DNA from: Patescibacteria group bacterium
GTDB taxonomy: Bacteria; Patescibacteriota; Minisyncoccia; Phycocordibacterales; UBA12088
Reading direction: 5' to 3'
NCBI GenBank assembly: GCA_015491245.1
Contig: WFWH01000027.1
Coordinates: 1-60,155 of the forward strand
Length of the DNA: 60,155 bases
Shown here: positions 7,409 through 45,199 of the stretch, piece after piece
Layout: each line of letters opens with the position of its first letter
How positions within the stretch are numbered: position 1 is the stretch's first letter
Made by a program: the position numbers and the translations under genes
The notes under the pieces: model-generated
Databases searched by the model: none
Told to the model about the DNA's origin: nothing
Seen by the model: only the letters and a program-made list of their open reading frames with translations

Positions 7409-7454
7409 TGCGGCCCGAGGGTGTAGTGCGGCTCGCTGCCGCCAGTTGTTATTT

Positions 7455-8972: not shown

Positions 8973-9143
8973 ACGCGTGGGTGAGATGGCTAACGTGGTG
9001 CCCCACCTTGAGGGGCGCCCTGCGCGCCGCGGTGCCGGCGCCCTATACAAAGAAGCGCCCCCGCGCGGGGACACTGCAGTACACCACACAGTATACGGGG
9101 CAAAGGCGCGCGCGTCAAATGTTGGGATGGCGTGAGTAAGGTA

Positions 9144-9173
9144 TTGACAATATATACTATGCTATGTTATAAT
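9144..9173 (+). promoter_or_regulatory. Sigma70-type promoter (TTGACA, 18 nt, TATAAT)
   Basis: TTGACA at 9144-9149 and TATAAT at 9168-9173, inside an AT-rich island. AGGAGA at 9191-9196 precedes ATG 9202. Confidence 0.65.
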
Positions 9174-9201
9174 TTAAAAAGAAAATTATTAGGAGAGCGC
9201 A

Positions 9202-9534
9202 ATGAAGAAACAGGAACAGCGCGACCTCCGCCGTCTGGCGGCGGAGGCCAAGGCCGCGGCGGCCGCGGCGAGGACGCAGGCGGCCAGGGCCTCGGCCCTG
9301 GCCAAGGCGGGGAAGCCCTCCGCGGCGGCCCGCGCGCTCGCCGCCGCTTGGGCGGCGGAGGCCCGCCGCCTCACCCCCAATCCCGCCGCCGCGGCGCATG
9401 CCGCCGCGGCGTGGGAGGCGGTCGCCGCCGCCGCCGGTGAGGTGGCGGCGGCGGCGGAGAAGCGGGGGAAGAAACCCCCGCTCACGCCCGCCGAGCGCGA
9501 GCGCCGCCTCGCAGCGCTCGCAGCGGCCGCCTAA
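9202..9534 (+). CDS. Small Ala-rich basic protein (110 aa), unknown function
   Basis: A self-contained unit: consensus promoter, SD, ORF MKKQEQRDLRRLAAEAKAAAAAART..., then tandem terminator hairpins. Coding status is not proven because GC is extreme and all frames are open. Confidence 0.45.
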   Translation: MKKQEQRDLRRLAAEAKAAAAAARTQAARASALAKAGKPSAAARALAAAWAAEARRLTPNPAAAAHAAAAWEAVAAAAGEVAAAAEKRGKKPPLTPAERERRLAALAAAA

Positions 9535-9546
9535 GAGTTCTTTCTC

Positions 9547-9617
9547 CCCCGCGGCAGGCACCTGCCTGCCGCGGGGACCCACTTGCACCCCGCCGTCTCC
9601 GGACGGCGGGTTTTTTT
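9547..9617 (+). terminator. Tandem hairpins; the second is a classic intrinsic terminator
   Basis: Hairpin 1 at 9547-9576 has a 13-bp stem. Hairpin 2 at 9589-9610 (cccgccgtc/gacggcggg) is followed by TTTTTTT at 9611-9617. Confidence 0.8.
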
Positions 9618-9765
9618 ATGTGCCGGCCGGCGCGTGCGCCGTGTGGCGCCGTGTACGCACGGCAGCGCACGCTACCCCACAAAAGGCAAAAGCGCGCGGC
9701 GTTTATCCTTACACACCATCACACCTCCACAACCCCGCCCGCAGTGCGCTACACTGTAGGGGCGT

Positions 9766-12324: not shown

Positions 12325-13133
12325 CGCGCGGCGGCTCCTTCTTGCGCCGCGGTGCCGCCCTCGGAGAGCGGCACCGCGGCTTGCTCCCACATGACCTCAA
12401 AAAGCGCGCGATGCATGCGTGTGAGCGAGGGGTCCTCTATGATGATGCCGATGAGCTGCGCGGCGCCCAAGGTGAGGTAGGAGGTGGTGGCGTCATACAT
12501 TTGCATCACGGTATTGAACGCTTCCGGTGCGCCGCGCCACTTGATGACGCGCGTTTCGGTAATGCCCTCGGGGTAGTTCGCCAAAAAGCGCCGCGCAAAC
12601 GCCGAATCGGGGACGATGCCGCGCTTTTTAACCCCGCGCCGCTCTCGGCGCCGCACGTACTCGCGGTTGAGCGCGGGAATGTGCGTTTCAATGGCTTCCA
12701 AATCGGCGAACGAGTAAATGGTTTCCCGTGCGGAAAGCGAGTGCTCCAGCACCTCGCGCGCACCCTCTTTCCCCTCATAGAAGCGCACGCCCGGTTTGCC
12801 GCGCAAAAGGTTGTAGGCGCTGAAGAGCCGCGGGAGTGCCGCCATTGCCGCGCGGTACCGCGCTTCTTCCTGCGCGCGCGCTTTTTCCGCGAGTGCGGCG
12901 AGGCGCACGGGCGAGAGGGGGTGGAAGATTGCCACCTTGCCTTGCGGTTCCTCCTTTTTCACCAAGTGCAGCGCCTGGAGCTCTCCCAGTATTTTGTAGG
13001 CGTGCGTGCGTGCCAGGCCGGTGCGCGCGGCAATATCGCGCGCGCGCCCGGGGCCGCGGGCGAGCAGTGCCTCATACACCGCGCTCTGTTCGGCGGTGAG
13101 GGGTGGAAATGCGTCAGTGGGCGTGCGGGGCAT
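12321..13133 (-). CDS. TrmB-like winged-helix transcriptional regulator
   Basis: N-terminal wHTH LTAEQSAVYEALLARGPGRARDIAARTGLARTHAYKILGELQALHLVKK plus a C-terminal domain of TrmB-family size. It is divergent from the island promoter. Confidence 0.65.
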   Translation of the reverse strand: MPRTPTDAFPPLTAEQSAVYEALLARGPGRARDIAARTGLARTHAYKILGELQALHLVKKEEPQGKVAIFHPLSPVRLAALAEKARAQEEARYRAAMAALPRLFSAYNLLRGKPGVRFYEGKEGAREVLEHSLSARETIYSFADLEAIETHIPALNREYVRRRERRGVKKRGIVPDSAFARRFLANYPEGITETRVIKWRGAPEAFNTVMQMYDATTSYLTLGAAQLIGIIIEDPSLTRMHRALFEVMWEQAAVPLSEGGTAAQEGAAAR

Positions 13134-13145
13134 ACGAATATGTTA

Positions 13146-13173
13146 AGGATATATTGTTTTTGTCACGTGTCAA
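13146..13173 (-). promoter_or_regulatory. Possible promoter of the TrmB-like gene (TTGACA, 16 nt, TATCCT), near-leaderless
   Basis: The reverse complement of 13168-13173 is TTGACA and of 13146-13151 is TATCCT. The start codon lies at 13133-13131, so the 5' UTR would be only a few nt. Confidence 0.35.
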
Positions 13174-13259
13174 TGACAATTATGTGGATATATAAAAAGC
13201 TTTTTGAAAAGTTTTTGAGCCATTTTTATGTTTCAATAACTTTTATTGTACAAAAATAT

Positions 13260-13288
13260 TTGACAAAACACACGCATTTATGTATACT
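13260..13288 (+). promoter_or_regulatory. Sigma70-type promoter (TTGACA, 17 nt, TATACT) heading the island
   Basis: TTGACA at 13260-13265, a 17-nt spacer, TATACT at 13283-13288. It sits in the AT-rich divergent region. Confidence 0.6.
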
Positions 13289-13295
13289 TCTGCGC

Positions 13296-13863
13296 AGTTG
13301 ATGCAGTGGTGGATGCCTTGAGCGGCATGCCACCGCGCTTCTGAAAAACGGCAAAAAAGTTCCTTTTTCGCCATGGCACTACTTGCTACGCAAGTGGGCA
13401 CCTGTGCCGGAGGGGATGCCAAGAGGGCATTGCCTCCGGACCGGTGCCTGTTTGAGGACCGCCGCGCCGCAGGGTGCGTGCGCGCGCGGCAGTGAGCGTC
13501 GGGCGGCAGGAAGCACACTCCATGACTTTTTGCGATAACCGCATGCTTGCGGGTGTGTTCCTTGCGCCTTGTGCTTCTCCGCACCGCACGCTCGCTGCGG
13601 GATGCGCCGTGCACCTTTATGCACGCGCTGCGCCTATGCAGGACCGCCGCAGTTCTTTGACAGGTGCACTTCCTTGATCGCACTCCCGGCCCCCTTTTTT
13701 CAGGCTGCGGGGAGGGAATGTGCCGCGCGGGAGAGTCACCTCTGCCCGCCCGAGCAGCGCGCGTGCGCTTTTCGGGCGGGCAGAGGGTCTGCCCGCCCCT
13801 GCGCGCGGGGATGGCGCGCACTAACCGAGAGGCCGCCGCGCGGCAACGCGCGGCGGAACGGAA
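13296..13863 (+). ncRNA. ~570-nt GC-rich structured untranslated RNA (long 5' leader or independent ncRNA); family unknown
   Basis: No credible ORF. Many nested hairpins (13308-13334, 13407-13439). A 15-bp stem pairs 13739-13753 with 13772-13786, and its 3' arm can alternatively pair with 13788-13798. A 9-bp hairpin at 13833-13856 ends 8 nt before ATG 13864. Confidence 0.4.
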
Positions 13864-14310
13864 ATGGGCTACTCGTTGGTAAAAGGATCGCGCGGCAAAG
13901 CGCCGCGCTTCGCGATTTACGTGGGCTTGCGTGCGGGCTACGGCCCGAACGCAAAGACCCACACCCGCGACGAGGTGGTCGAGCTGGTGCTCAACCACCT
14001 CAAAAGGAAAGCCGCGTCCGGCGAGGAGTACCTCACCGGCATCGTCGATGACGGTGATGCCGAGGCGGTATACGCCTGGCCCGAGGGGCCGGGCAAGGCG
14101 GGGGGTGGCCACGAGCCACAGGTCACGTACAGCGGGAACGTCAACCCGCTGTACAACGCCTCGATGAGTCGCGAGGCCATCGAGGCATTCCTCAACGACC
14201 TCGCCGCCGAACTCGGCGAGGCCCTCGAGCAAACGAGGGTCTACGTGGAATTCGCGGGGGAGCAGTGGATCCTCCAAAAGGAGGGTTCCGAGACTCCGAC
14301 CGGCGAATGA
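13864..14310 (+). CDS. Island gene 1: hypothetical protein (148 aa)
   Basis: Balanced composition (PRFAIYVGLRAGYG, EAVYAWPEG, SREAIEAFLNDLAAELGEALEQTRVYVEFAGEQWILQ). Followed by two hairpins. No family recognised. Confidence 0.6.
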   Translation: MGYSLVKGSRGKAPRFAIYVGLRAGYGPNAKTHTRDEVVELVLNHLKRKAASGEEYLTGIVDDGDAEAVYAWPEGPGKAGGGHEPQVTYSGNVNPLYNASMSREAIEAFLNDLAAELGEALEQTRVYVEFAGEQWILQKEGSETPTGE

Positions 14311-14317
14311 TTCTTTT

Positions 14318-14398
14318 GCGGGCGGCGGCTTAAGCTGCCGCCTGCAAAAGACTCCTGCTGTTTTCGGCAAGGGGGGCGCCCCCCTTGCCGCTTTTATT
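14318..14398 (+). terminator. Two hairpins after gene 1; the second has a U-tract
   Basis: 14318-14345 is a 12-bp stem (two G-U) with a TTAA loop. 14365-14390 (cggcaagggggg/ccccccttgccg) is followed by CTTTTATT. Confidence 0.65.
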
Positions 14399-14572
14399 GA
14401 GCCGGCAATCGTGATTGCCGACTCATTGAGGTCTTTGAAATATCCATGCGTTAGCACCGCGGCCCTCACGAGCGGGTTCACCAGACTAATTGAGCTGATA
14501 GCCACTTCGTGAGGGCTGCATGGTGCGGCCCTGGTAATCGCCGGCCTACGGCGAAGCGGAAGGAGGAACGAG

Positions 14573-15166
14573 ATGAAAAAAATCGTTCTCGCCGGTCCGC
14601 CTCGGTCCGGCAAGAGTTGTTTGCGCGAGGGGCTGAAACAGGCCCTTCGCGCGATCCCGGGTGCGCCGTATCCGTACGTGATTACGGCATGCCCGGACGG
14701 AGAGGGGTCGTGGTTCCAGGAAACTGTGAACCGCGACCCGGAGCTCGCCGCGGCGTGCAAGGCCGCCTACAAGGCGAGCTTCACCCCGGAGTTCGTTCGC
14801 CGGGTGGCGGAGAGCGTACGCAAGTGCACGCTCCCGCTCACCCTGGTGGACATCGGTGGAATTCCGTCCGAGGAGAACAGGGTCATATGCAAAGATGCTA
14901 CCCACATTGTTCTCCTCGCCGGCAACGATCCTAAAACGGGGACACCGTGGAAGGATCGCCTGCCGGAGTGGCGGGAATTCGCCAAGGGGTTGGGGCTTGC
15001 CGTGGTGGCGGAGATCTTCTCCGACTACCACGGCAAGGAGGACGCCGTCTTGGGTGTGGGGTCCGACGGCGTTCTCCGCGGCTCGGTTCACTACCTTGAG
15101 AGGGGTGAGCCGGTCGCCGAGCGCCCGATGATTCGGGCGCTCGCCGAACACCTGCTCCAGCTCTAA
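14573..15166 (+). CDS. Island gene 2: small P-loop NTPase (197 aa), paralogous to the N-terminus of gene 4
   Basis: AGGAGG at 14561-14566. Walker A is GPPRSGKS and the Walker B-like strand is LTLVDIGG. It shares the motifs ACPDGEGSW, HIVLLAG, DGVLRGSVHYLERGEPVA with 15931..16480. Confidence 0.7.
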   Translation: MKKIVLAGPPRSGKSCLREGLKQALRAIPGAPYPYVITACPDGEGSWFQETVNRDPELAAACKAAYKASFTPEFVRRVAESVRKCTLPLTLVDIGGIPSEENRVICKDATHIVLLAGNDPKTGTPWKDRLPEWREFAKGLGLAVVAEIFSDYHGKEDAVLGVGSDGVLRGSVHYLERGEPVAERPMIRALAEHLLQL

Positions 15167-15314
15167 CACCGGGCCCGCTTCGGCCGTGAGTGGGGATCCG
15201 CGCGAAAACCATGCGCGCGGGAGGGACCCACAGAGCTGGGAGTGATCACCTGCTCCCAAAAATCTGAAACCCACGAGCCGACGGTGAAGCTCGCAAATCA
15301 GATGGGAGGCCATC

Positions 15315-15656
15315 ATGGCCTATTACAACATCTCTCCCACTCCCGCCATCGTCGCCGGCACGCCGGCGACCCTGTTCCGGGTCGGCTTCGGGGAGCCGGC
15401 CCAGAACGATAAGATTGTTCAGGCCGCCGAGGATCGCCTCGCCGAGTTCGCCGAGCTCGGGGGGGAGCTCGCCCTCATCAACGGGCCGGCTTCGCTGCCG
15501 GTGGCCGTGGTGCTCGCGCACCACATCGTCCACCGGTTCGCGGCCGTAGGGGTTTTCGACCCCAAGATGGCCGCGTATGTCGTCGCGGCCGCCCACGGCG
15601 GGCGGTACTCGGTCGGGGACGTAATCCCCGCCGAGACCGTCACCGAGGCGGCCTGA
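15315..15656 (+). CDS. Island gene 3: Csx3/Crn3-like protein (113 aa)
   Basis: The core LALINGPASLPVAVVLAHHIVHRFAAVGVFDPKMAAYVVAAAHGGRYSVGDVI resembles the Csx3 core as I recall it from A. fulgidus (GVVISGRGPIWLHCFLAHKYHHTPFVAVYDPRLGAVVV...GDVI). Similar size and a GGGAGG SD. Confidence 0.55.
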   Translation: MAYYNISPTPAIVAGTPATLFRVGFGEPAQNDKIVQAAEDRLAEFAELGGELALINGPASLPVAVVLAHHIVHRFAAVGVFDPKMAAYVVAAAHGGRYSVGDVIPAETVTEAA

Positions 15657-15813
15657 CGGCCTGAATCATTGGCTCGCCACCGATGAGTAACAGTTCTCCG
15701 AGTGGCGCTCGGAGTTGCGGTAAAAATCCTTCCGCGTAAAAGTATGGATGCGAGTTGATACCCGGGGAAGGGGCTCGCGAAAATAAAAACCCACAACCCC
15801 GGGGCCGTTTTTC

Positions 15814-15849
15814 GCGGGAGCCGCTAGGTTCCGGCTCCCGCTATCTTTT
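15814..15849 (+). terminator. Hairpin plus U-tract after gene 3
   Basis: gcgggagccg/cggctcccgc forms a 10-bp stem (15814-15841), followed by TATCTTTT. Confidence 0.55.
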
Positions 15850-15886
15850 GAGAACGCAAACATCGTTTGTGTTCTCAAAGAGATAG
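15841..15886. repeat. 46-nt near-perfect palindrome upstream of gene 4
   Basis: ctatcttttgagaac gcaaacatcgtttgt gttctcaaagagatag. The outer arms are complementary with one bulge, and the inner caaac/gtttg segments also pair. Confidence 0.6.
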
Positions 15887-15930
15887 TGTTCCTTAGTTTT
15901 GTTGCCGCCATGCGGCGGCAAGGAGGTGAG

Positions 15931-17628
15931 ATGAGAAAGGTGATTGTGTGCGGGCCGCCGCACAGCGGCAAGTCCGTCTTCTTGAGCAACCTCCAGCGGC
16001 TGCTCCCAACCGAGCATCATATGTTGATTTTCGGTGCTCCCGACGGGGAGTGGCACTGGAGTAATGAAGCGGACCAAAAACTCGTCCGCGAACTTCGCGC
16101 CAAGAAGGAGTTCACGGATGAGTGGTGCGACGGCATCCTTGCCGCTATCGCCAGCGTCGAGCAGCGGCTGGTGCTGGTGGATACGGGCGGCAAGCGGCTC
16201 CCGCCGAACGACCGGATATTCCAGTCGTGCGACGCTTTTATCGTCCTCTCTTCTTCTCCGGAAGAGAGGGAGGAATGGCGCCGCTACGGCGAGCGATTCG
16301 GATGCCGGTGCATCGCCGAGCTTGACTCGGTTCTGCACGGCGAATGCGAGCTCTATCCGCTCGCAGACGACGGCATCATTCGCGGGAGGATCACGGGGCT
16401 TGAGCGCGGGAAGACCGTTGCGTCTCCCGTGCTGGAGGCGGTTGCCGAGCGGCTTCGGAAGGTCATTGCGGCGAATGCCGAGATGACTGAAGCCGAGCTT
16501 CTCGCCAACATCAACGGCGCGAAGCTGGTTGACCACCTGGGTATTTCGGATCGCGATGATCCATACCTGGGTGTGCGCCCGTGGCACACCGCACCGGCGC
16601 TCAGGGTGGCGCGGGCGGCGCGGAAGTTGGAGGTCGTGCGGATATGGAACGTCCGCGCGAGCTTCCTGTCGTCCGCGTTTGCGGCGGCGCTCCCCGGCAG
16701 AGTGGAGCTCTTCGGCGTCTCCGAAGGGTATGTCCGCCTGCCGGAGGTGGCGCCGCGCGGCGACGGCGCGGGCAACCTTGAGTGGGAGATCACGGAGCTT
16801 CCGGACTTCACGGTCGTGGAGTATCGGAAGAACGGATTTTTCGCAAAGGAAATGCTCGCGGAGGTCGCCCCGCCGGCGGTCAGCGCCCGCAAGGGCGTGG
16901 TGCTGGCAACGGACGGCCCGCCGATCTGGCTGGACGCCACGATTGCACGAGCGTACGCCCGCGCGGGCATCCCGTGGATCGGGATGTTCGTGCCCGTGGA
17001 ATCCGGGCGCGCGCAGCCGTCGCTCGGCGGCCACCCGTGGGGCGAAGCATATCCCAAGGACGGGCCGTGCGTCGTCGTCCACGGCCCGGAGGAGCGGCTC
17101 GGGGAAGTGTTCCCTGTGCCGATCTCCATCCTCAAGTGGAACGGCGGCGGCCGGCAGTGGCGGCTTGGCTCGGGGGAGGTTGTGAAGGACCGGCCCAATA
17201 GCCATGTCGCCACACACACGACAGTCCTCCCCCTCCTTGCCGATGCTCTCTCGCGAGTATCGGCGCGCGGCCGTGCGTTCATCACCGAGGAGGTGCGTTT
17301 CAACCATATCGTCGGAGAGACGATATGCGTTGAGACAAAGCCGGGCGATGAAATCGTCTATGCGCGGCGGCCGAATCGCGCGGGGCTTACGCGGTTTGTC
17401 AAAAACCGCGCACCCGAGCCGTGCGACACGGTCACCGTATGCCTCAAGCGCGCCAAGGAGGGGCATTACACCCTCCTTACCGCGTTTGTGGGGCACCGCG
17501 CACCGGCCGAGCCGTGGGACAAAAGGTGGGTGACCGAGGAGTCGCGTGCTTTTTGGGCAACTCATGCGCTCGTATGGGGGCGCGAGGAGGTGGTACCGGG
17601 GACGGAGACCACCGTCTGTCCCTGGTAA
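15931..17628 (+). CDS. Island gene 4: fusion of P-loop NTPase, Csx3-like domain and an unknown C-terminal domain (565 aa)
   Basis: AGGAGG at 15921-15926 then ATG 15931. N-terminus MRKVIVCGPPHSGKS with LVLVDTGG. Middle segment LEWEITELPDFTVVEYRK...ARKGVVLATDGPPIWLDATIARAYARAGIPWIGMFVP...CVVVH is Csx3-like. The C-terminal ~170 aa (GETICVETKPGDEIVYARR, HYTLLTAFVGHRAPAEPWD, WATHALVW) are unrecognised. Confidence 0.65.
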   Translation: MRKVIVCGPPHSGKSVFLSNLQRLLPTEHHMLIFGAPDGEWHWSNEADQKLVRELRAKKEFTDEWCDGILAAIASVEQRLVLVDTGGKRLPPNDRIFQSCDAFIVLSSSPEEREEWRRYGERFGCRCIAELDSVLHGECELYPLADDGIIRGRITGLERGKTVASPVLEAVAERLRKVIAANAEMTEAELLANINGAKLVDHLGISDRDDPYLGVRPWHTAPALRVARAARKLEVVRIWNVRASFLSSAFAAALPGRVELFGVSEGYVRLPEVAPRGDGAGNLEWEITELPDFTVVEYRKNGFFAKEMLAEVAPPAVSARKGVVLATDGPPIWLDATIARAYARAGIPWIGMFVPVESGRAQPSLGGHPWGEAYPKDGPCVVVHGPEERLGEVFPVPISILKWNGGGRQWRLGSGEVVKDRPNSHVATHTTVLPLLADALSRVSARGRAFITEEVRFNHIVGETICVETKPGDEIVYARRPNRAGLTRFVKNRAPEPCDTVTVCLKRAKEGHYTLLTAFVGHRAPAEPWDKRWVTEESRAFWATHALVWGREEVVPGTETTVCPW

Positions 17629-17635
17629 AGCTTGT

Positions 17636-17674
17636 GTGCGTACGGAAGCCGTAGCTTCCGTACGCACCTTTATT
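17636..17674 (+). terminator. Intrinsic terminator after gene 4
   Basis: A 14-bp perfect stem gtgcgtacggaagc/gcttccgtacgcac with a CGTA loop, followed by CTTTATT. Confidence 0.7.
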
Positions 17675-17730
17675 CCGTGCATGACTGCAGTCGTGCACGG
17701 ATAGAGGTTCTTTGAAAGGAGGAGAAAAAC

Positions 17731-18267
17731 ATGGGTACCGCCCATCCAAAAATATCACGCGCCCGGCAGTTTGCCAGGCGTGTGCACAACAGGCAGATGC
17801 GCCTTGATGGAGAGTCGCAGTTCGCGCATTGCGAGCGGGTCGCCACCATCGTCATCGGCCTACTGGCGGAATTTCATCACCCCGTCCGCGATGACGAGGT
17901 GGTGGAGGATGTGGTCGCCGCCGCGCTCCTCCACGATACGTTGGAGGACACCGAGACCACCGACGAGGAGCTTGCCGGGCACTTCGGCGAGCGGGTGGCG
18001 CGCATTGTCCGCGCTGTGAGCCACGAGCAGGAAGAGGAGCCCGATGAGGTTTACCTCTCTCGTGTGGCTGCCGGCGGTCGGGAGGCGCTTCTGGTGAAGC
18101 TCGCCGACCGGCTGGACAATACGCGCACGCTCGTGCGGGCGCCGCGCGAATTTCGTGAGCGCAAGCTCGCCGAGATACGCGCAGCGCTGCCCATCTGGGA
18201 GCGTATGTTCCTGGAGAGTGTGCCGCTGATCAGGAAAGCGATCAAGGAGGTGGAAGATGCCTCGTAG
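17731..18267 (+). CDS. Island gene 5: SpoT/RelA-type HD hydrolase, small alarmone hydrolase (SAH)-like
   Basis: AAGGAGG SD. VHNRQMRLDGESQFAHCERVA and AALLHDTLEDT...FGERVARIVRAVS match the (p)ppGpp-hydrolase HD signature (H..Q.R, HD, ED). At 178 aa there is no synthetase domain. Confidence 0.8.
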   Translation: MGTAHPKISRARQFARRVHNRQMRLDGESQFAHCERVATIVIGLLAEFHHPVRDDEVVEDVVAAALLHDTLEDTETTDEELAGHFGERVARIVRAVSHEQEEEPDEVYLSRVAAGGREALLVKLADRLDNTRTLVRAPREFRERKLAEIRAALPIWERMFLESVPLIRKAIKEVEDAS

Positions 18268-18296
18268 ATCGCTTTCAGAGCTTCGTCTGCGCGCCG

Positions 18297-18545
18297 GTGC
18301 GGCTCTTCAGGTTGCACCGGAGCTCCGTAAGGAGGCTCGTGAGAATTGCGAGTGAGAAGTCACCTTCGGCGGCATTCTCGCTTGCCTCGCGCGCAGCACA
18401 GCTTCATGGCCACGCGGGCATGGACACTTTGGCGCTTGCCAAGGCGACCCGCTGGCTTGCCGTGATCCGACGGGATTACGGTGAAAAAGCGTTTTTGGGG
18501 ACCGTGGGGACGCCTGCGGCCATGAACCAAGGAGAAAATTCATGA
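18297..18545 (+). CDS. Island gene 6: small ORF translationally coupled to the AAA+ gene (start uncertain)
   Basis: The frame ends with TGA overlapping ATG 18542 (ATGA). An internal ATG would give MDTLALAKATRWLAVIRRDYGEKAFLG. No family recognised. Confidence 0.3.
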   Translation: MRLFRLHRSSVRRLVRIASEKSPSAAFSLASRAAQLHGHAGMDTLALAKATRWLAVIRRDYGEKAFLGTVGTPAAMNQGENS

Positions 18546-19768
18546 GCAACCCGCTTTCTCAGGCCACCGCGGTGGCCGGCAAGGTCAGGGCGATCACCGA
18601 CGAGGTGCTCGCCGAAAACATCGGGCGGGAGCAGATGGTGCATGCCGTCTGGCTCTCGCTCATCTCCGGCAACCCGGCGTTTTTCCTGGGCGAGCCGGGC
18701 CTTAACAAAACCGGCACCGTCCAGGCGCTTGCGCGCCGGATTGACGGGGCGGTCTTCTACGACGCCCTGATGCCGACCGTTGTGTCGGTGGAGCAGCTTC
18801 TTGTGGAGTCTACCTCCATTGAGGAGTCGCCGACCAGCTCGGGCGGTAAGGAAATTCGCGTGCGAGAGAAACTCGGCCGGGCGGCGAAGGCACACCTCGT
18901 CTTTGCCGACGAGATCTGGAAGGCGGAGCCGCGCGTGCTCCAGACGGTTCTGGATCTCGCCAAGGGCGACGGGGTGCGCCACGAGGGCGCGATGATCAAA
19001 ACGCCGCTTATGGCGTTTATCGCCGCGTCCAACGAGTTGCCCGAGCCGGAGGGCAACCTTGGCGCGATGTGGTCGCGTATGACCATTCGCGCCGTGGTGG
19101 AGCCTTTGGGTGCTGGAGAGAAGCGCGCGTTTATCAAAGCGCGCCTTGCCCGCAAACGGCACGCGAGCTCCGGCGGCGCTCAGCCGGCACAGAAGCTCAC
19201 CTTGCAGGAGGTGGAGCTTCTGCGGCAGGCGCAGCCGCTCGTTGCCGTCCCCGACGACATCGTTGAGCAGGTGCTGGAGATTTACCAAGCCCTGCGAGAC
19301 AAGGACTCGGAGGGCTTTGACTGGCTATGGGCCGACGACCGGCGCTTTGGCCGTATCTTTGATGTCCTGCAGGCAAATGCCCTGCTGGACGGACGAGACA
19401 CGGTCAGCCGGCAGGACCTGTGGGTCCTGAATCTGCTCCTGTGGGATGACCCGGAGCAGATTCCGACGGTCGTGGAGACCGTCGCGCCGTACTGCCGGAC
19501 GCCGCTCTCGGAGGCCGAGGAGCTCGTGGATGCGCTCTTTGTGCCCGATGGCCTCGTCGCGGAGGTCAAGGGCGGCAAGCGCGATCGCCTAGTAGAAGCG
19601 ATCACCCAGATTGAGGAGTGCGAGAAAGAGCTCGCGCGCCTCATGGGTGAGGCCTCTGGTACCGAGGCCGCTTCCATCGGCGACCTCCAGGCGAAGATTG
19701 CCGCCGAGAAGCAGGCGGTGGTCAGTGCTGCCTTGGGGACCAAATATACGGTCTCCAGTCGCAAATAA
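18542..19768 (+). CDS. Island gene 7: MoxR-class AAA+ ATPase, RavA-like
   Basis: Walker A GEPGLNKT, Walker B LVFADEIWKAEPRVLQTVL, IAASNELPE and DDRRFGRIFDVLQANALLDGRDTVSRQDLWVLNLLLW parallel E. coli RavA blocks (VFLDEIWKAGPAILNTLL, VAASNELPE, SDRRW...GR...DL). Confidence 0.85.
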   Translation: MSNPLSQATAVAGKVRAITDEVLAENIGREQMVHAVWLSLISGNPAFFLGEPGLNKTGTVQALARRIDGAVFYDALMPTVVSVEQLLVESTSIEESPTSSGGKEIRVREKLGRAAKAHLVFADEIWKAEPRVLQTVLDLAKGDGVRHEGAMIKTPLMAFIAASNELPEPEGNLGAMWSRMTIRAVVEPLGAGEKRAFIKARLARKRHASSGGAQPAQKLTLQEVELLRQAQPLVAVPDDIVEQVLEIYQALRDKDSEGFDWLWADDRRFGRIFDVLQANALLDGRDTVSRQDLWVLNLLLWDDPEQIPTVVETVAPYCRTPLSEAEELVDALFVPDGLVAEVKGGKRDRLVEAITQIEECEKELARLMGEASGTEAASIGDLQAKIAAEKQAVVSAALGTKYTVSSRK

Positions 19769-21651
19769 TGGAGGTCAAAATGGAAAATCCCAGTAAGCCG
19801 CCGCTTACGCGGCAGGAGCTCGGGCGCCTGCTGGTGTCGGATGCGGATGCCTTCACACAGCTCCGCTTCCTCCGGCACCGGGAGACAACCCCGGCGCTCC
19901 AGGAGCTCGAGCGGGCGGCGGAAGACCGCCTGCCGGGCTCGGTAGGCGCGCTCGCCGACCTCTACCACGCGCTCTGGTCTCCCGACCCAAAGCTCCTCCC
20001 GGAGGAGCAGGTCGGGACCGACCGGCGCGCGTGGCGTGCGATGCTCCAGGGCATGCTCGCCTCCTCAGCCTACGAGGCGGCGCATGCCCGGACGCGCCTC
20101 TCGGACCTCCGGTCGCTTATCGGGACCATTGAGCTCGGCAACGCCATTGCCGCGCAGGTATCCGAGGAGGATGCGGAGAAGCTACGGGAGCAGGCCGCGG
20201 CGCAGCGCGAGGCGGATGAGGCCAACGACAGGGCCGAGGAGGCCGAGTCGCAGGCGGATGCCGCCGAAGCGCTTGCACAGGCGGCCGCCGGGCAGGCGCA
20301 AGCCGGCTCCGGGCAAGGCGGCGACTCTCAGCCGGGTGAGCCGTCCGGCGAGGATGCGGGTGGTGAGCCGCAGGAGAGCTCGCAGGGGCAATCTGGCGAT
20401 TCGCTGGGTGCGTCCGGTATGCCGCAGTCCGGAGTCGGCACTCCCGCGGGTGGTGCAATGCCGCAGGCGGGAGCGCCGTCGAGGATGCCGCAGAGCGGCC
20501 GGCCCCAGAGGGGCGGTCGCGCAGAGGCGCACTCCGGCGGTGGCACCATCACGCCCGAAGAGGCCCAAGCGCTTGCCGATGAGCTCGCGAGGCAAGCCCA
20601 GGAGGCGCGCGCGAAGGCCGAGGCCGCGCGTGAGGAAGCCGAGCGCAAGCAGCAAGAAGCCGACCGGCTCGCCGAGGCGCTTCTGGGAGAGCCCGGGAGC
20701 GAGGAGGCGGCCGAGAAGCTCCAGGAGCTTGCGCGCATCGGCGCGGCGGCGATGCGCAAGGCCCAAAAGAAGGTGGAAGAGGTCTCCGAGACCTTGGAAG
20801 CCTGGGGCCTTGAGGAGGGTGAGCTCACCCGCGAGGGGATGCCTGAGGCGATGGGCATTCTGGAGCGGATGCAAAAGAGCGATGCCTTCAAAAAATTCGC
20901 ATCGCTCCTTGGCCGGATTCGTCGGATTGCCGCCCGTAAGGCGAAGTCCGACGAGAGAGTCGAGGGAGTTCGGGTATCAAAGCCCGAGCTCGGCCGCGAC
21001 ATTCGCCGGGCGGTGCCGGCGGAACTTGCCGCGCTTGCGACGCCTGTCACTCGACCCAAGACGCTTGTGCGTTGGGCACGGGGCGAGCTGCGCTTGCGCG
21101 GCGAGGAGGCAAAGCAGCGCCTCGGCGAGGGGCCGGTGGTGGTCTGCGAAGACTCTTCCGGCTCCATGGACGGAGCGAAGCGGCAGTGGGCGAAAGCGAC
21201 AACGCTCGCGCTTGCCCACTACGCCAAGCTCCGCAAGAGGTCGTTTGCGTGGATCATGTTTGATTCGCGCGTGCAGGCGGTTAAGGTCGTTGAGAAGGGC
21301 CGGCTGTCTGCGAAGGACCTTCTGGAGATCGCCGAGGTAAGCTCCGGCGGCGGCACCTCATTTGAAGCGCCGCTTGACCGCGCCCTTGAGGTGATTCGCG
21401 AGGAAGGCTTGAAAAAGGCCGACATCGCGTTTATCACCGATGGTGAGTGCGCGGTTGCCGACGAGTGGCTCAAGGAGTTTCTCGCTGCAAAGGAGAAGCT
21501 CCAGTTCAATGTCGTCAGTGTCCTGTGCGACGTGGGCGCCACAAGCGGCAGCACGGTAGAGAAATTCTCTGACCGTGTTGAGCGTGTCTCCTCGCTTGAC
21601 GAGGGGGATGCCGCCGCAGTCATCGGCCATATAGGAGGTGGTCATGGCTGA
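19768..21651 (+). CDS. Island gene 8: ViaA-like VWA-domain protein with a long low-complexity acidic/Gln/Gly linker
   Basis: The start overlaps the upstream stop (TAATG). The C-terminal VWA domain has the MIDAS motif VVVCEDSSGSMDG, then WAKATTLALAHYA, GGGTSFEAPLD, IAFITDGE. This is the layout of ViaA/CoxE-type partners of MoxR ATPases. Confidence 0.8.
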   Translation: MEVKMENPSKPPLTRQELGRLLVSDADAFTQLRFLRHRETTPALQELERAAEDRLPGSVGALADLYHALWSPDPKLLPEEQVGTDRRAWRAMLQGMLASSAYEAAHARTRLSDLRSLIGTIELGNAIAAQVSEEDAEKLREQAAAQREADEANDRAEEAESQADAAEALAQAAAGQAQAGSGQGGDSQPGEPSGEDAGGEPQESSQGQSGDSLGASGMPQSGVGTPAGGAMPQAGAPSRMPQSGRPQRGGRAEAHSGGGTITPEEAQALADELARQAQEARAKAEAAREEAERKQQEADRLAEALLGEPGSEEAAEKLQELARIGAAAMRKAQKKVEEVSETLEAWGLEEGELTREGMPEAMGILERMQKSDAFKKFASLLGRIRRIAARKAKSDERVEGVRVSKPELGRDIRRAVPAELAALATPVTRPKTLVRWARGELRLRGEEAKQRLGEGPVVVCEDSSGSMDGAKRQWAKATTLALAHYAKLRKRSFAWIMFDSRVQAVKVVEKGRLSAKDLLEIAEVSSGGGTSFEAPLDRALEVIREEGLKKADIAFITDGECAVADEWLKEFLAAKEKLQFNVVSVLCDVGATSGSTVEKFSDRVERVSSLDEGDAAAVIGHIGGGHG

Positions 21652-22267
21652 GGAGCTTATTGTCACCAAAATCGCCGAGCAAGGGAAGAAATTTGATGAA
21701 ACCGGACAGTGCATCACATCGCACGAGCGGTCCATTGTCTTTCTCCCTCGCGAGGCGAAGCCCGGCGAGCTCGTCCGTGTCCGCCTCATTCCCATCACCG
21801 ATCCGGAAGGGAATGAGAAAAAAGACCGCAACGGGCGTGTTATGTACCGTGCGGTCTGGGCGCCCGCGAGTCTTAGCCTCAAGCAGAGGATTGCGCAGGA
21901 GGCGCAGAGATTGCGCGCCTGCGCAGCTCTGCAGGGCAAAGCGGGAGAAGCGGCAGCGCGCACTCTTTTGGGTGCCGCCCCTCAGGGTGGTACCGGCTTT
22001 GACTGGTACTATTTTGAGGAAAGCGCGGCATACGCGTCACGCTTCTCCCCCTCTGCGCTGTTACTGCTCGAACATATCGAGCATGTGCAGGGCAGTGCGG
22101 AGGCGGAACTGCTCGCCTGGGTGGCGGATGGGGCGTACTACCGACGCCGCGCACGTGGGGAGCCAGTAGATTACTGGCAGTGCCCCGATCTATCCGCCGC
22201 CAGATTGGAGGCGTTGGGCAATGACTCACTGTTGTTGTCCCGACGCCTTGATGGGGAGGAATCGTGA
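21644..22267 (+). CDS. Island gene 9: hypothetical protein (207 aa), N-terminal small beta-barrel (TRAM/OB-like?)
   Basis: AGGAGG at 21633-21638. The ATG overlaps the VWA stop (ATGGCTGA). The N-terminus IVFLPREAKPGELVRVRLIPI is TRAM-like. The rest is unrecognised. Confidence 0.5.
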   Translation: MAEELIVTKIAEQGKKFDETGQCITSHERSIVFLPREAKPGELVRVRLIPITDPEGNEKKDRNGRVMYRAVWAPASLSLKQRIAQEAQRLRACAALQGKAGEAAARTLLGAAPQGGTGFDWYYFEESAAYASRFSPSALLLLEHIEHVQGSAEAELLAWVADGAYYRRRARGEPVDYWQCPDLSAARLEALGNDSLLLSRRLDGEES

Positions 22268-22299
22268 TGGATTCTTCCTTCAAAATCATTCAACTTTCT

Positions 22300-22368
22300 C
22301 GCCCGGCTGCGGAAGCAGCCGGGCGTTCCCCTCTCCACATGTTTCCGTGGAGAGGGGTTTTTTATTTT
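22300..22368 (+). terminator. Double terminator closing the island
   Basis: 22300-22325 is an 11-bp stem with a GGAA loop. 22328-22357 (cccctctccac/gtggagagggg) is followed by TTTTTTATTTT. Confidence 0.8.
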
Positions 22369-22471
22369 CGGCGGCGTGCATTGTTGTGGAGTTATAAGAG
22401 GCGCGGCACACAGCGCGGCGCAGGGCGCCTGCCGCATCCACAGGCGCGGGTGCGTGGGGTGTGGGGTTATT

Positions 22472-22480
22472 TGCTATACT
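22472..22480 (+). promoter_or_regulatory. Extended -10 promoter (TGcTATACT) upstream of pilB
   Basis: tTGCTATACT at 22471-22480. No good -35 element. Confidence 0.4.
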
Positions 22481-22578
22481 GAAAAAACCACACGAGGGTA
22501 TGCGGGGAACGCGGCGGCGCGGATTAGCACCGCGAAGGCGCGCGCGGCTCTCCGCGCCGTTTCGGTGCGTCCTTTTCC

Positions 22579-43039: not shown

Positions 43040-45199
<2,160 letters not shown>

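What the first reader, a model, noticed from the sequence alone, without database searches (positions are those of the whole stretch)
13134..22370. Orphan Csx3 / P-loop NTPase / alarmone-hydrolase / RavA-ViaA island: candidate undescribed nucleotide-signal conflict system
The DNA between nusA (ends 8972) and pilB (22579) is accessory. Its core (13864-22267) is nine ORFs, all on the + strand, in four hairpin-delimited units. Unit 1 is a 148-aa unknown protein. Unit 2 is a 197-aa P-loop NTPase plus a 113-aa Csx3-like protein. Unit 3 is a 565-aa fusion of P-loop NTPase, Csx3-like domain and an unknown domain. Unit 4 is a SpoT-type HD hydrolase, a small ORF, a RavA-like AAA+ ATPase, a ViaA-like VWA protein and a 207-aa TRAM-like protein. 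Unit 4 is tied together by start/stop overlaps: ATGA at 18542, TAATG at 19766, ATGGCTGA at 21644. From established knowledge, Csx3/Crn3 is a type III CRISPR ring nuclease that degrades cyclic tetra-adenylate. Small alarmone hydrolases degrade (p)ppGpp/(p)ppApp and can neutralise toxic alarmone synthetases. MoxR-VWA pairs recur in NTP-dependent conflict systems. Yet no Cas10, CARF, CD-NTase, alarmone synthetase, reverse transcriptase, integrase or CRISPR array is visible anywhere in the 60 kb. I do not know of a described defence system with this combination. My inference has two alternatives. (a) It is a signal-sensing defence module whose signal generator is one of the three unassigned proteins or domains, or lies elsewhere in the genome. 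(b) It is a counter-defence island that degrades or sponges host immune nucleotides.
Basis: partly seen in the sequence, partly recalled or inferred. Interest (0 to 1): 0.9.

Follow-up and report, generated by a model that had tools for sequence, protein, structure and literature searches.

The report
CRISPR-less Csx3 / MoxR cluster of Patescibacteria
This is a real gene cluster conserved across the ultra-small Patescibacteria: an uncharacterised enzyme-like domain and a MoxR–VWA chaperone pair, joined here by relatives of three enzymes that destroy immune or stress nucleotide signals, with no CRISPR system nearby; what it does is unknown and apparently undescribed.

Summary
All nine + strand ORFs, the four terminator hairpins and the start/stop overlaps are present, and profile searches confirm Csx3 (twice), a SpoT/MESH1-type HD hydrolase, a RavA-like MoxR ATPase and a ViaA-like VWA protein.

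New findings:
- The "unknown" 148-aa protein belongs to the SAM-AMP-lyase family.
- The P-loop domains look like SIMIBI-type NTPases, not AAA+.
- The fused Csx3 domain has lost the catalytic residues and looks like a sensor. The free 113-aa Csx3 keeps them.
- The C-terminal ~170 aa of the 565-aa protein ("CTD") is a widespread, uncharacterised family (about 1,000 clusters, plus jumbo-phage homologues) with a confident model and no match to a known fold.
- The conserved core is large GNAT-tailed protein + TrmB + CTD + MoxR + VWA, found in many Patescibacteria. The Csx3, lyase and HD genes are add-ons in a minority of them.
- No CRISPR array lies next to any Patescibacterial copy.

So this is not a sporadic accessory island or a chance juxtaposition. 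It is an elaborated variant of a lineage-wide cluster. My best reading is a CRISPR-independent module that senses and degrades an adenine-nucleotide signal (confidence about 0.4). No signal generator or output was identified. A housekeeping nucleotide or RNA-end role is a serious rival. I found no description of it in the literature.

The parts
9766..12324 (+). 852-aa protein with a helical N-terminal and central region and a GNAT-like C-terminal domain.
   Evidence: Weak Acetyltransf_1 hit, 0.0048. The 579-aa homologue in L046 carries Acetyltransf_1/7/10 hits. Relatives lie next to TrmB in L004, L008, L009, L010, L011, L028, L031, L041, L045, L046, L053, L076 and L082-L087. Alignment A8.
12321..13133 (-). 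TrmB-family transcription regulator (270 aa), divergently oriented.
   Evidence: Pfam TrmB in the precomputed gene calls. Conserved at this position in most related loci.
13134..13863 (.). Divergent promoter region plus a highly structured leader of about 570 nt upstream of the 148-aa gene.
   Evidence: Sigma-70-like sites at 13260-13288 (+, 11 of 12 matches) and 13173-13146 (-, 10 of 12). The fold of 13295-13870 has z = -6.9 against shuffles. No Rfam family. Not conserved in other loci.
13864..14310 (+). 148-aa divergent member of the SAM-AMP-lyase / SAM-lyase (PII-like) family.
   Evidence: Family profile A5 against C. botulinum SAM-AMP lyase (9gad, 9lqd): E = 6e-31. Subfamily-only profile: same top hits at E = 0.05. 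hhalign probability 95%, E = 2.8e-8. Keeps the equivalents of catalytic E71 and Q108 but not W64/C66. PADLOC Mvol_0529-fam 3e-5.
14573..15166 (+). 197-aa stand-alone P-loop NTPase of the Csx3-associated type.
   Evidence: PADLOC 'Csx3-AAA' ATPase part 6e-57. Walker A GPPRSGKS and VDIGG read. Homologues at 72-73% identity in L050, L053 and L082.
15315..15656 (+). 113-aa Csx3/Crn3-like protein that keeps the catalytic-type residues.
   Evidence: Pfam Cas_csx3 3.1e-6, above cut-off. The alignment to A. fulgidus Csx3 shows H69, H73, D82, K84 and H94 at H57, H60, D69, R71 and H80 (residue roles from PMC7371418). The same residues are kept in the L053 and L082 homologues.
15931..17106 (+). Residues 1-392 of the 565-aa protein: a SIMIBI-like P-loop NTPase, a helical linker and a Csx3 domain that lacks the catalytic residues (probable ligand sensor).
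   Evidence: PADLOC C3a67 'AAA-Csx3' 4.5e-49. Profile against A. fulgidus Csx3 5.6e-14, with R/A/V/V at H57/H60/D69/R71. AlphaFold2 pLDDT 91.9. Foldseek gives Csx3 at TM 0.82-0.87, and MinD, HypB, MeaB and CTP-synthase-like hits for the N-terminal domain.
17107..17628 (+). C-terminal domain ('CTD', residues 393-565): a widespread uncharacterised family with many invariant polar residues. It is the true core partner of MoxR-VWA.
   Evidence: 1,020 representative clusters at E <= 1e-3, mostly stand-alone proteins of 150-200 aa. phrog_23674 at 3.4e-28. It is a separate ORF in L010, L011, L028 and L082. Model pLDDT 90.7 with no PDB or BFVD fold match. MoxR+VWA adjacent in 20 of 29 informative loci.
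17731..18267 (+). 178-aa SpoT/MESH1-type HD hydrolase (small-alarmone-hydrolase type).
   Evidence: HD_4 2.4e-16. spoT_relA 4e-20. Top solved structures are HDDC3/MESH1 at 1e-12, Rel/SpoT hydrolase domains, small alarmone hydrolases and a (p)ppApp hydrolase. The HD, ED and DRLDN motifs are visible.
18297..18545 (+). Small conserved protein (68-82 aa) of unknown function, translationally coupled to MoxR.
   Evidence: 52-63% identity over about 50 aa in L003-L008, L052, L053 and L127. ATGA overlap at 18542. No family hit.
18542..19768 (+). 408-aa MoxR-family AAA+ ATPase, RavA-like.
   Evidence: bpMoxR 6e-18, AAA_lid_8 8e-13, AAA_5 1e-8. RavA model 5.5e-28, far below its equivalog cut-off. Walker A GEPGLNKT and Walker B VFADE read.
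19768..21651 (+). 623/627-aa protein with a low-complexity N-terminal part and a C-terminal VWA domain with an intact MIDAS motif (ViaA-like).
   Evidence: VWA_2 5.7e-7, VWA_CoxE 2.4e-6. ViaA model 7e-12 over the VWA part only. DSSGS...GGGTS...TDGE read.
21644..22267 (+). 207-aa protein of unknown function, the conserved last gene of the operon.
   Evidence: 13 homologues in the protein database. Relatives follow VWA in L003-L008 and L082/83, some extended to 429-517 aa. No Pfam (including TRAM), PHROG or PDB sequence match.
22328..22357 (+). Terminator-like hairpin that ends the cluster. Similar hairpins lie at 14365-14390, 15814-15841 and 17636-17667.

Best explanation
The region is an elaborated version of a gene cluster conserved across Patescibacteria (the Candidate Phyla Radiation, CPR).

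The conserved core is a TrmB-type regulator, a large GNAT-tailed protein, an uncharacterised ~160-aa enzyme-like domain (CTD), a RavA-like MoxR ATPase and a ViaA-like VWA protein. In this genome and a minority of relatives, the core has picked up parts otherwise known as signal-handling accessories of type III CRISPR. These are two NTPase+Csx3 units and a SAM-AMP-lyase-family protein. It has also picked up a MESH1/SpoT-type HD hydrolase and a 207-aa protein.

Proposed mechanism: the cluster senses and degrades an adenine-nucleotide-derived signal without any CRISPR system.
- The catalytically dead Csx3 domain binds the ligand and gates the fused NTPase and CTD.
- MoxR-VWA, using ATP and its MIDAS site, activates or resets the CTD protein.
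- The catalytically competent 113-aa Csx3, the lyase-like protein and the HD hydrolase destroy the ligand(s) and switch the system off.
- TrmB controls expression.

Shown: domain identities, retention or loss of catalytic residues, conserved gene linkage, fusion and fission of NTPase/Csx3/CTD, and absence of CRISPR nearby.
Inferred: ligand binding, the identity of the ligand, the role of MoxR-VWA, what the CTD does, and whether the output is defence, dormancy or nucleotide homeostasis. No signal generator was found.
For: 1. Conserved linkage. The fusion is followed by MoxR+VWA in every Patescibacterial locus that carries the CTD (L003-L012). CTD homologues of at least 48% identity have MoxR+VWA adjacent in 20 of 29 informative unique metagenome loci.
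2. Fusion and fission. NTPase, Csx3 and CTD are one protein here. They are two proteins in L010, L011 and L028, and three in L082.
3. Sensor and eraser pairing, as in type III ancillary modules. The fused Csx3 lacks H57, H60, D69 and R71. The free Csx3 keeps the His, Asp and His residues (residue roles from PMC7371418). Shah et al. already proposed that Csx3 regulates the fused ATPase allosterically (PMC6546367).
4. A SAM-AMP-lyase homologue sits beside the fusion in L003-5, L007, L009, L010, L011 and L028. It is 34-38% identical to the C. botulinum enzyme and keeps W64, C66, E71, N81, Q108, T110 and Y122. The window carries a more divergent copy.
5. The HD protein matches MESH1 and small alarmone hydrolases best.
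6. No CRISPR array occurs in the window or in any Patescibacterial locus, whereas distant relatives in Myxococcales and Haloarcula sit beside arrays. CPR lineages largely lack CRISPR-Cas (PMC4742961).
7. Add-ons vary between relatives (a DEAH helicase, or a nucleotidyltransferase fused to the NTPase-Csx3 protein, as in Peregrinibacteria L027). The genomic position also varies: nusA-pilB here, between fusA and tuf in L004. This is typical of conflict-type systems. MoxR-vWA pairs are established relay modules in such systems (PMC7159879).
Against: - No signal generator (Cas10, CD-NTase, alarmone synthetase) and no recognisable toxic effector is present in the cluster or the 60-kb window.
- PADLOC recognises no defence system.
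- The core is broadly conserved with stable synteny, which suits a lineage-specific physiological function.
- More distant stand-alone CTD homologues lie among housekeeping and nucleotide-metabolism genes: NDK, NUDIX, a uridine-kinase-like protein, YchF and EF-P.
- Only about 2 of 29 CTD loci carry the Csx3, lyase or HD add-ons.
- The window's own lyase-like protein lacks the SAM-AMP-specific W64/C66 residues, so its substrate is uncertain.
Confidence: 0.4

Rival explanations
1. Housekeeping nucleotide salvage or homeostasis operon of Patescibacteria. The CTD is a nucleotide-metabolising (possibly metal-dependent) enzyme that MoxR-VWA matures or activates, as CbbQO, NorQD and CoxDE do for their clients. 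Csx3, the lyase-like protein and the HD hydrolase act on bulk metabolites (oligoadenylates, SAM, nucleoside polyphosphates), not on signals.
For: - The core is widespread and syntenic in CPR, next to nusA in two lineages.
- Stand-alone CTD homologues lie beside NDK, adenylate kinase, a LOG-like protein and an RNase-J-like protein, and beside NUDIX, a uridine-kinase-like P-loop protein and YchF.
- Phage homologues lie beside dNMP kinase and the 5'-nucleotidase NT5C.
- The NTPase domain resembles metallochaperone and ligase-type SIMIBI NTPases such as HypB, MeaB, Cfd1 and the CTP synthase N-terminal domain.
- No toxin or effector is recognisable.
- From general knowledge: CPR bacteria lack de novo nucleotide synthesis.
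Against: - The fused Csx3 has lost its catalytic residues, which fits a sensor better than a metabolic enzyme.
- The add-ons are precisely the families known from immune-signal turnover.
- The accessory content varies and a dedicated regulator is present.
- The position of the cluster differs between genomes.
Confidence: 0.2
2. RNA 3'-end (for example tRNA) surveillance or repair module. Csx3 domains bind or trim A-rich 3' ends. The SpoT-type HD removes 3'-pyrophosphate or other end modifications. Helicase, nucleotidyltransferase or 2H-phosphoesterase variants process ends. The CTD and MoxR-VWA act on an RNA-protein complex.
For: - A DEAH/HrpA-like helicase follows VWA in L010 and L011, and follows the NTPase-Csx3 gene directly (no MoxR-VWA or HD) in L028, L032, L013, L014 and L027.
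- Peregrinibacteria fuse NTP_transf_2 to the NTPase-Csx3 protein.
- One CTD protein (P0171) carries a C-terminal 2H-phosphoesterase-like domain with two HxT motifs.
- Jumbo-phage CTD genes lie inside tRNA gene clusters.
- Csx3 was first described as an RNA deadenylase (cited in PMC7371418).
- From my own knowledge, not checked here: small alarmone hydrolases can remove the pyrophosphate that toxic RelA-SpoT homologues put on tRNA CCA ends.
Against: - No RNA ligase, RtcB, Pnkp or Hen1 is in the cluster.
- The TRAM assignment for the 207-aa protein is unsupported.
- Csx3's physiological substrate is now considered to be cA4 (PMC7371418).
- A SAM-AMP-lyase relative has no obvious RNA-end role.
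Confidence: 0.15
3. Counter-defence island. The epibiotic bacterium uses these enzymes to degrade or sponge immune nucleotides (cA4, SAM-AMP, alarmones) made by its host or by competitors.
For: - Every recognisable enzyme belongs to a family that degrades immune or stress nucleotides.
- SAM-AMP lyases and ring nucleases are used by phages as anti-CRISPRs (PMC12255297).
- CTD homologues occur in jumbo phages.
- The cluster sits next to type IV pilus genes in this genome.
Against: - The proteins would have to reach the host cytoplasm. No secretion-related feature was looked for or seen.
- The linkage to pilus genes is not conserved.
- A sensor-like dead Csx3, MoxR-VWA and a local regulator are not expected for simple signal-degrading enzymes.
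- The core without the degrading enzymes is far commoner.
Confidence: 0.1
4. Ordinary type III CRISPR-Cas accessory cassette whose cas10 locus lies elsewhere in the same genome.
For: - The NTPase-Csx3 families and the Mvol_0529 family were defined as type III-linked accessories (PMC6546367).
- Distant relatives in Myxococcales and Haloarcula are next to CRISPR arrays.
Against: - No array or cas gene is present in the 60-kb window.
- No array is present in any Patescibacterial locus among 133 records (1.53 Mb) scanned.
- CPR lineages are essentially devoid of CRISPR-Cas (PMC4742961).
- The cluster's constant partners are MoxR-VWA, TrmB and the GNAT-tailed protein, not cas genes.
Confidence: 0.05

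Closest known systems
Type III CRISPR ancillary signalling modules: a CARF/Csx3 sensor-effector plus a ring nuclease, or the SAM-AMP / CorA / SAM-AMP-lyase branch
   Same: Uses the same protein families. These are Csx3/Crn3, NTPase-Csx3 fusions (Shah et al. clusters 35 'Csx3-AAA' and 67 'AAA-Csx3') and SAM-AMP lyase. A sensor-like copy is paired with a catalytically competent one.
   Different: No Cas10, Cas complex, CRISPR array or CorA nearby. It sits in a lineage that mostly lacks CRISPR. It is linked instead to MoxR-VWA, an HD hydrolase, TrmB and a new C-terminal domain. The window's lyase copy lacks the SAM-AMP-specific residues.
MoxR-vWA-centred ternary conflict systems (Kaur, Burroughs, Iyer and Aravind 2020, PMC7159879)
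   Same: A MoxR AAA+ ATPase and a vWA protein with an intact MIDAS motif are translationally coupled and joined to a conserved third component and variable extra genes. The best Pfam match for the MoxR is the bpMoxR model from that study.
   Different: The third component is none of VMAP, iSTAND, FtsH or a beta-propeller. The vWA domain is C-terminal and carries no effector domains. The hosts are unicellular, ultra-small bacteria rather than multicellular ones.
RavA-ViaA of Enterobacteria
   Same: Closest named models for the ATPase (AAA_lid_8; RavA profile positions 4-291) and for the VWA protein (VWA at the C-terminus, as in ViaA). The genes are adjacent.
   Different: Scores are far below the equivalog cut-offs (98 against 681 bits; 45 against 500 bits). 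The ATPase is 90 aa shorter and nothing matches the RavA C-terminal part. The neighbours are unrelated.
Toxic small alarmone synthetase / small alarmone hydrolase modules and MESH1
   Same: A stand-alone SpoT-type HD hydrolase of about 180 aa with the HD, ED and DRLDN motifs.
   Different: No RelA/SpoT-type synthetase gene is in the cluster or the window. The gene heads an operon with MoxR-VWA instead of pairing with a toxin.

Membership tests
Csx3/Crn3 ring nuclease | Csx3 sequence and fold | tested here: met
   113-aa protein: Pfam PF09620 at 27.4 bits, above the 21-bit cut-off, but the NCBIfam equivalog TIGR02579 gives 23.6 bits, below its 55.4 cut-off. Fusion family profile against A. fulgidus Csx3: 5.6e-14. 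Model TM-score 0.82-0.87 to 3wzi and 6yud.
Csx3/Crn3 ring nuclease | Catalytic and binding residues H57, H60, D69, R71, H80 (PMC7371418) | tested here: inconclusive
   113-aa protein: H, H (spacing one residue longer), D, K (in place of R) and H are present, and they are conserved in the L053 and L082 homologues. Fused domain: R/A/V/V at H57/H60/D69/R71, so the feature is not met there.
Csx3/Crn3 ring nuclease | Genomic association with type III CRISPR-Cas | tested here: not met
   No array or cas gene in the window or in any Patescibacterial locus. The whole genome was not available.
Csx3/Crn3 ring nuclease | Mn-dependent cleavage of cA4 | not testable with these tools
   Needs a biochemical assay.
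SAM-AMP lyase (PII-like SAM-lyase superfamily) | Sequence homology to C. botulinum SAM-AMP lyase | tested here: met
   Neighbourhood family profile 6e-31. tblastn 34-38% identity for the relatives. For the window's subfamily: hhalign probability 95% and the same top PDB hits at only E = 0.05. The single sequence gives no hit.
SAM-AMP lyase (PII-like SAM-lyase superfamily) | Catalytic E71 and Q108 | tested here: met
   E84 and Q123 align to them (residue roles from PMC12255297).
SAM-AMP lyase (PII-like SAM-lyase superfamily) | SAM-AMP-specific residues W64, C66, T110, T112, Y122 | tested here: not met
   The window protein has a T-loop 3 aa longer (AWPEGPGKAGGGHE) with no aligned W or C, and R at T110. 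The relatives in L009-L011, L028 and L004 do keep W64, C66, T110 and Y122.
SAM-AMP lyase (PII-like SAM-lyase superfamily) | Association with CorA and type III-B Cmr | tested here: not met
   Neither appears in the gene calls around the cluster.
Small alarmone hydrolase (SpoT/MESH1 HD) | HD_4 domain with the hydrolase motifs | tested here: met
   HD_4 2.4e-16. MESH1, Rel, small alarmone hydrolases and a (p)ppApp hydrolase are the top solved structures. The motifs are visible.
Small alarmone hydrolase (SpoT/MESH1 HD) | Partner alarmone synthetase (toxin) nearby | tested here: not met
   No RelA/SpoT synthetase domain appears among the cluster proteins or in the gene calls for about window 5,900-55,200.
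MoxR-VWA pair (RavA-ViaA type) | MoxR AAA+ ATPase with lid domain and Walker A and B motifs | tested here: met
   bpMoxR, AAA_5 and AAA_lid_8. GEPGLNKT and VFADE read.
MoxR-VWA pair (RavA-ViaA type) | Adjacent VWA protein with a MIDAS motif | tested here: met
   VWA_2 and VWA_CoxE. DSSGS, GGGTS and TDGE read. The genes abut: TAATG at 19766, or an 11-nt gap if the start is at 19780.
MoxR-VWA pair (RavA-ViaA type) | Orthology to RavA and ViaA (NCBIfam equivalog cut-offs) | tested here: not met
   98 bits against a 681-bit cut-off; 45 bits against a 500-bit cut-off.
MoxR-vWA ternary conflict systems (Kaur et al. 2020) | Third component is VMAP, iSTAND, FtsH or a beta-propeller; effector domains are fused C-terminal to vWA | tested here: not met
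   No such Pfam domains in any cluster protein. The VWA domain is at the C-terminus of its protein (residues 457-560).
Any described anti-phage defence system (PADLOC-DB v2) | A full set of system-defining proteins | tested here: not met
   Only the Csx3, Csx3-AAA, AAA-Csx3 and Mvol_0529 accessory models hit. MoxR, VWA and the 207-aa, 82-aa and 852-aa proteins have no hit, and the HD protein has only a marginal, partial ZorB (MotB) hit at 4.4e-4.

The most novel reading that the evidence does not exclude
Patescibacteria, which have essentially no CRISPR-Cas, keep a Cas10-independent second-messenger pathway built from type III CRISPR signalling parts. An adenylate-type signal (cA4-like or SAM-AMP-like) comes from an unidentified source: the large GNAT-tailed protein, a nucleotidyltransferase in some variants, or an invader. 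A dead Csx3 domain reads the signal and, with MoxR-VWA, switches on a previously unknown enzyme fold (the CTD family, shared with jumbo phages). Dedicated Csx3, lyase and HD enzymes then erase the signal.
Probability: 0.2. Interest if true: 0.9.

Novelty: new variant of a known kind. Interest (0 to 1): 0.7.

Why it matters
If the reading is right, three things follow.
- CRISPR-type nucleotide signalling logic (a sensor domain plus signal erasers) would operate without CRISPR in one of the largest and least understood bacterial radiations.
- A first functional context would exist for NTPase-Csx3 proteins, whose role has been an open question since 2018.
- A first functional context would also exist for a family of about 1,000 clusters with no match to a known fold, shared by Patescibacteria and jumbo phages.

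Even on the conservative reading, the core of large GNAT-tailed protein, TrmB, CTD, MoxR and VWA is a conserved and apparently undescribed feature of genomes only about 1 Mb long. That makes it a good target for the few genetically tractable Patescibacteria.

Tried and rejected
- **TRAM assignment for the 207-aa protein.** No Pfam hit even at E <= 5 over 16 family members and no PDB sequence hit.
- **Fold of the CTD.** The model is confident, but Foldseek finds nothing in the PDB (best E = 0.12, TM below 0.21) or in BFVD.
- **Other CTD architectures.** Pfam on ten longer CTD proteins gave nothing except one weak 2H-phosphoesterase hit.
- **The 852-aa protein as signal generator.** Only a GNAT-like C-terminal domain is visible. 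No cyclase, polymerase or nucleotidyltransferase signal appears.
- **Riboswitch or known RNA in the 730-bp leader.** No credible Rfam hit and no conservation in other loci.
- **MoxR-VWA next to the phage CTD homologues.** Absent. The neighbours there are nucleotide-metabolism and tRNA genes.
- **Technical failure.** The first genome scan, with the broad alignment A1, failed for lack of a conserved stretch and was repeated with A2.
- **'Foreign island by composition'.** Rejected: GC content is 0.60-0.65, like the rest of the window, except the low-complexity part of the VWA gene.
- **'Chance juxtaposition'.** Rejected on the conserved synteny.

Full report

Yes. The nine ORFs are on the + strand at the stated coordinates. 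Terminator-like hairpins lie at 14365-14390, 15814-15841, 17636-17667 and 22328-22357 and divide them into four units. The overlaps ATGA (18542), TAATG (19766) and ATGGCTGA (21644) are in the sequence. For the VWA gene, the ATG at 19780 has the better ribosome-binding site and was chosen by an independent gene caller.

- Cas_csx3 for the 113-aa protein and for the middle of the 565-aa protein.
- HD_4/SpoT for the 178-aa protein.
- bpMoxR, AAA_5, AAA_lid_8 and RavA for the 408-aa protein.
- VWA_2 and ViaA for the 627-aa protein.

PADLOC matches the two P-loop parts to the 'Csx3-AAA' and 'AAA-Csx3' accessory families at 6e-57 and 4.5e-49, and recognises no complete defence system. The window has no CRISPR array, tRNA gene or Rfam match. 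Everything downstream is housekeeping: type IV pilus genes, TIM, PGK, RecJ, ComEC and the str/S10 ribosomal operons.

**2. What the unassigned parts are**

*The 148-aa protein.* It belongs to the SAM-AMP-lyase / SAM-lyase (PII-like) family.
- That enzyme hits the neighbours of the fusion gene directly in six other lineages, at 34-38% identity.
- The window's own subfamily is more divergent: hhalign probability 95%, E = 2.8e-8; its own profile finds the same structures only at E = 0.05.
- Using residue roles from PMC12255297, the relatives keep Y48, W64, C66, E71, N81, Q108, T110 and Y122.
- The window protein keeps the E71 and Q108 equivalents but has a longer T-loop without W64/C66. Family membership is therefore sound, but the substrate is open.

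*The 565-aa protein.* It folds confidently (pLDDT 91.9).
- The N-terminal P-loop domain resembles SIMIBI NTPases (MinD/Soj, HypB, MeaB, Cfd1, the CTP synthase N-terminal domain), not AAA+.
- The middle domain superposes on A. fulgidus Csx3 at TM 0.82-0.87.
- Aligned to A. fulgidus Csx3, the fused domain has R/A/V/V at the essential H57, H60, D69 and R71 (residue roles from PMC7371418).
- The free 113-aa Csx3 and its homologues in L053 and L082 keep His, His, Asp, Lys and His at those positions.
- The cluster therefore holds one probable sensor and one probable enzyme.

*The C-terminal ~170 aa (CTD).* This is the biggest surprise.
- It is a highly conserved family: 1,020 representative clusters at E <= 1e-3, mostly stand-alone proteins of 150-200 aa at 45-60% identity. 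The named members are all Patescibacteria.
- It equals phrog_23674, of unknown function.
- Homologues at 40-43% identity occur in jumbo phages of Serratia, Yersinia, Cronobacter, Pectobacterium, Erwinia, Xanthomonas and Pseudomonas, and in a metagenomic phage with verified tail genes.
- A domain-only model is confident (pLDDT 90.7) but has no fold match in the PDB or BFVD.
- Many polar residues are invariant, which suggests an enzyme or a specific binding site.

*The 207-aa protein.* It stays unassigned. It has 13 homologues and no Pfam (including TRAM), PHROG or PDB sequence match.

**3. Is the neighbourhood conserved?**

Strongly, and the pattern redefines the unit.

A scan of GTDB species genomes with the fusion family gave 37 loci. 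Every Patescibacterial locus that carries the CTD also has MoxR+VWA next to it. The HD gene, the small ORF and the 207-aa gene accompany them in the closer relatives. A TrmB gene and a large protein related to the window's 852-aa ORF lie upstream.

Other points:
- In L004 the whole block sits between fusA and tuf, which are adjacent in the window.
- The CTD is a separate ORF in L010, L011 and L028. In L082, the NTPase, Csx3 and CTD are three separate genes.
- Stand-alone CTD genes in other Patescibacteria are embedded in the order large GNAT-tailed protein / TrmB / CTD / MoxR / VWA, once next to nusA as in the window.

In a sample of metagenome contigs chosen only by a CTD motif:

| CTD identity to the window | Informative unique loci | With MoxR+VWA adjacent | With NTPase/Csx3 | With lyase | With HD |
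|---|---|---|---|---|---|
| at least 48% | 29 | 20 | 2 | 2 | 2 |
| below 48% | 12 | 0 | 0 | 0 | 0 |

The more distant CTD genes lie among EF-P, YchF, NUDIX, NDK and kinase genes.

Some variants use other partners. A DEAH/HrpA-type helicase follows VWA in L010 and L011. In L028, L032, L013, L014 and L027 the helicase follows the NTPase-Csx3 gene directly, with no MoxR-VWA or HD. In Peregrinibacteria L027 a nucleotidyltransferase domain is fused to the NTPase-Csx3 protein.

CRISPR arrays occur only beside distant, non-Patescibacterial relatives in Myxococcales and Haloarcula.

**4. How it most likely works**

Three things are shown:
- A stable core (TrmB, GNAT-tailed protein, CTD, MoxR, VWA).
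- Fusion and fission that tie the NTPase, Csx3 and CTD together.
- A set of add-ons, each belonging to a family that degrades adenine-nucleotide signals: Csx3 (cA4), SAM-AMP lyase, and the SpoT/MESH1 HD.

My inference is a CRISPR-independent sense-and-erase module. The dead Csx3 domain reads a ligand and gates the NTPase and CTD. MoxR-VWA remodels or activates the CTD protein. The live Csx3, the lyase-like protein and the HD hydrolase reset the system. This extends the proposal of Shah et al. (PMC6546367) that Csx3 controls the fused ATPase allosterically. It also fits the general role of MoxR-vWA pairs as relays in conflict systems (PMC7159879).

The weak points are serious. No generator and no output were found. 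The broad, syntenic conservation of the core and the housekeeping contexts of distant CTD genes fit a physiological role in nucleotide or RNA-end metabolism about as well. I give the signalling reading 0.4, nucleotide housekeeping 0.2, RNA-end surveillance 0.15, counter-defence 0.1 and a remote type III accessory 0.05.

**5. Comparison with what is known, and novelty**

- NTPase-Csx3 fusions are known as type III-linked accessories of unknown function (PMC6546367, PMC7371418, PMC12409355).
- SAM-AMP lyases are known from CorA-type III-B systems and from a phage (PMC12255297).
- MoxR-vWA ternary systems are known (PMC7159879), but with other third components and other architectures.

The membership tests show that the cluster meets the domain-level criteria of each family. 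It fails the system-level ones: there are no cas genes, CorA, alarmone synthetase or VMAP/iSTAND-type third component, and the RavA and ViaA equivalog cut-offs are not reached.

Full-text searches found no paper combining Csx3 with Patescibacteria. No paper links MoxR to a Patescibacterial gene cluster either; the one hit concerns host-side systems. I therefore class the finding as a new variant of known kinds. The CTD family is a separate, uncharacterised element.

**6. Verdict**

The cluster is real, conserved and undescribed. The 'defence island' label is premature, and 'accessory' is wrong for the core. Interest: 0.7.

Noticed in passing
window 13295-13870: The ~570-nt GC-rich leader between the promoter region and the 148-aa gene is unusually structured (MFE -320 kcal/mol against -270 +/- 7 for shuffles, z = -6.9). 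One hairpin abuts the start codon. A 20-nt tandem repeat lies at 13463-13514. There is no Rfam match and no sequence conservation in related loci.
   Followed up: partly
L004 (jgi Ga0209864_1000001) 4202-16953: In a 1.03-Mb Patescibacterial contig the whole cluster lies between fusA and tuf, inside the otherwise conserved str operon. In the window, fusA and tuf are adjacent (43040-46800).
   Followed up: partly
L131 (Serratia phage BF, record coordinates 273879-274349) and L132 (Pseudomonas phage Astolliot): Jumbo-phage homologues of the CTD lie inside tRNA gene clusters. Their neighbours include an AAA ATPase, an R2K ATP-grasp protein, the 5'-nucleotidase NT5C, a dNMP kinase and an RNaseH-like protein. 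All the CTD homologues are annotated as hypothetical.
   Followed up: partly
L010 13076-16264, L011 14789-18172, L028 11932-15276, L027 11919-15710, L014 5704-8442: A large DEAH/HrpA-like helicase (DEAD, Helicase_C, HA2, OB_NTP_bind) follows the NTPase-Csx3 or VWA genes in several Patescibacterial and Peregrinibacterial loci. In L014 the helicase has an N-terminal nucleotidyltransferase-like part. In L027 the NTPase-Csx3 protein carries HTH_3 and NTP_transf_2 domains.
   Followed up: partly
protein P0171 (330 aa): A CTD protein with a C-terminal extension that has two HxT motifs and a weak hit to the tRNA-ligase cyclic phosphodiesterase (2H) domain. This is a possible clue that the CTD acts on nucleotide or RNA ends.
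   Followed up: partly
L012 11234-13219 and L014 2795-5686: In an Uhrbacteria locus and a Peribacteria locus, the CTD or the NTPase-Csx3 protein is joined to a further conserved region of about 450 aa with no Pfam match (shared motif around 'YPTHQ..WL.L.FV'). This is another uncharacterised module of the system.
   Followed up: no
window 7455-9089 (- strand): The nusA ORF has a long, very acidic Glu/Ala-rich C-terminal tail. The longest ORF (544 aa from a GTG) exceeds the 505-aa gene call, so the start is ambiguous.
   Followed up: no
window 22264-22482: A 71/72-aa ORF called by the public annotation directly after the 207-aa gene runs through the terminator hairpin at 22328-22357. It is probably not a real gene.
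   Followed up: no
L083 14990-15283: A four-copy direct repeat with CRISPR-like spacing lies about 1.2 kb downstream of the start of the 207-aa-type gene match (13815). It is probably a coding repeat rather than an array, but this was not examined.
   Followed up: no
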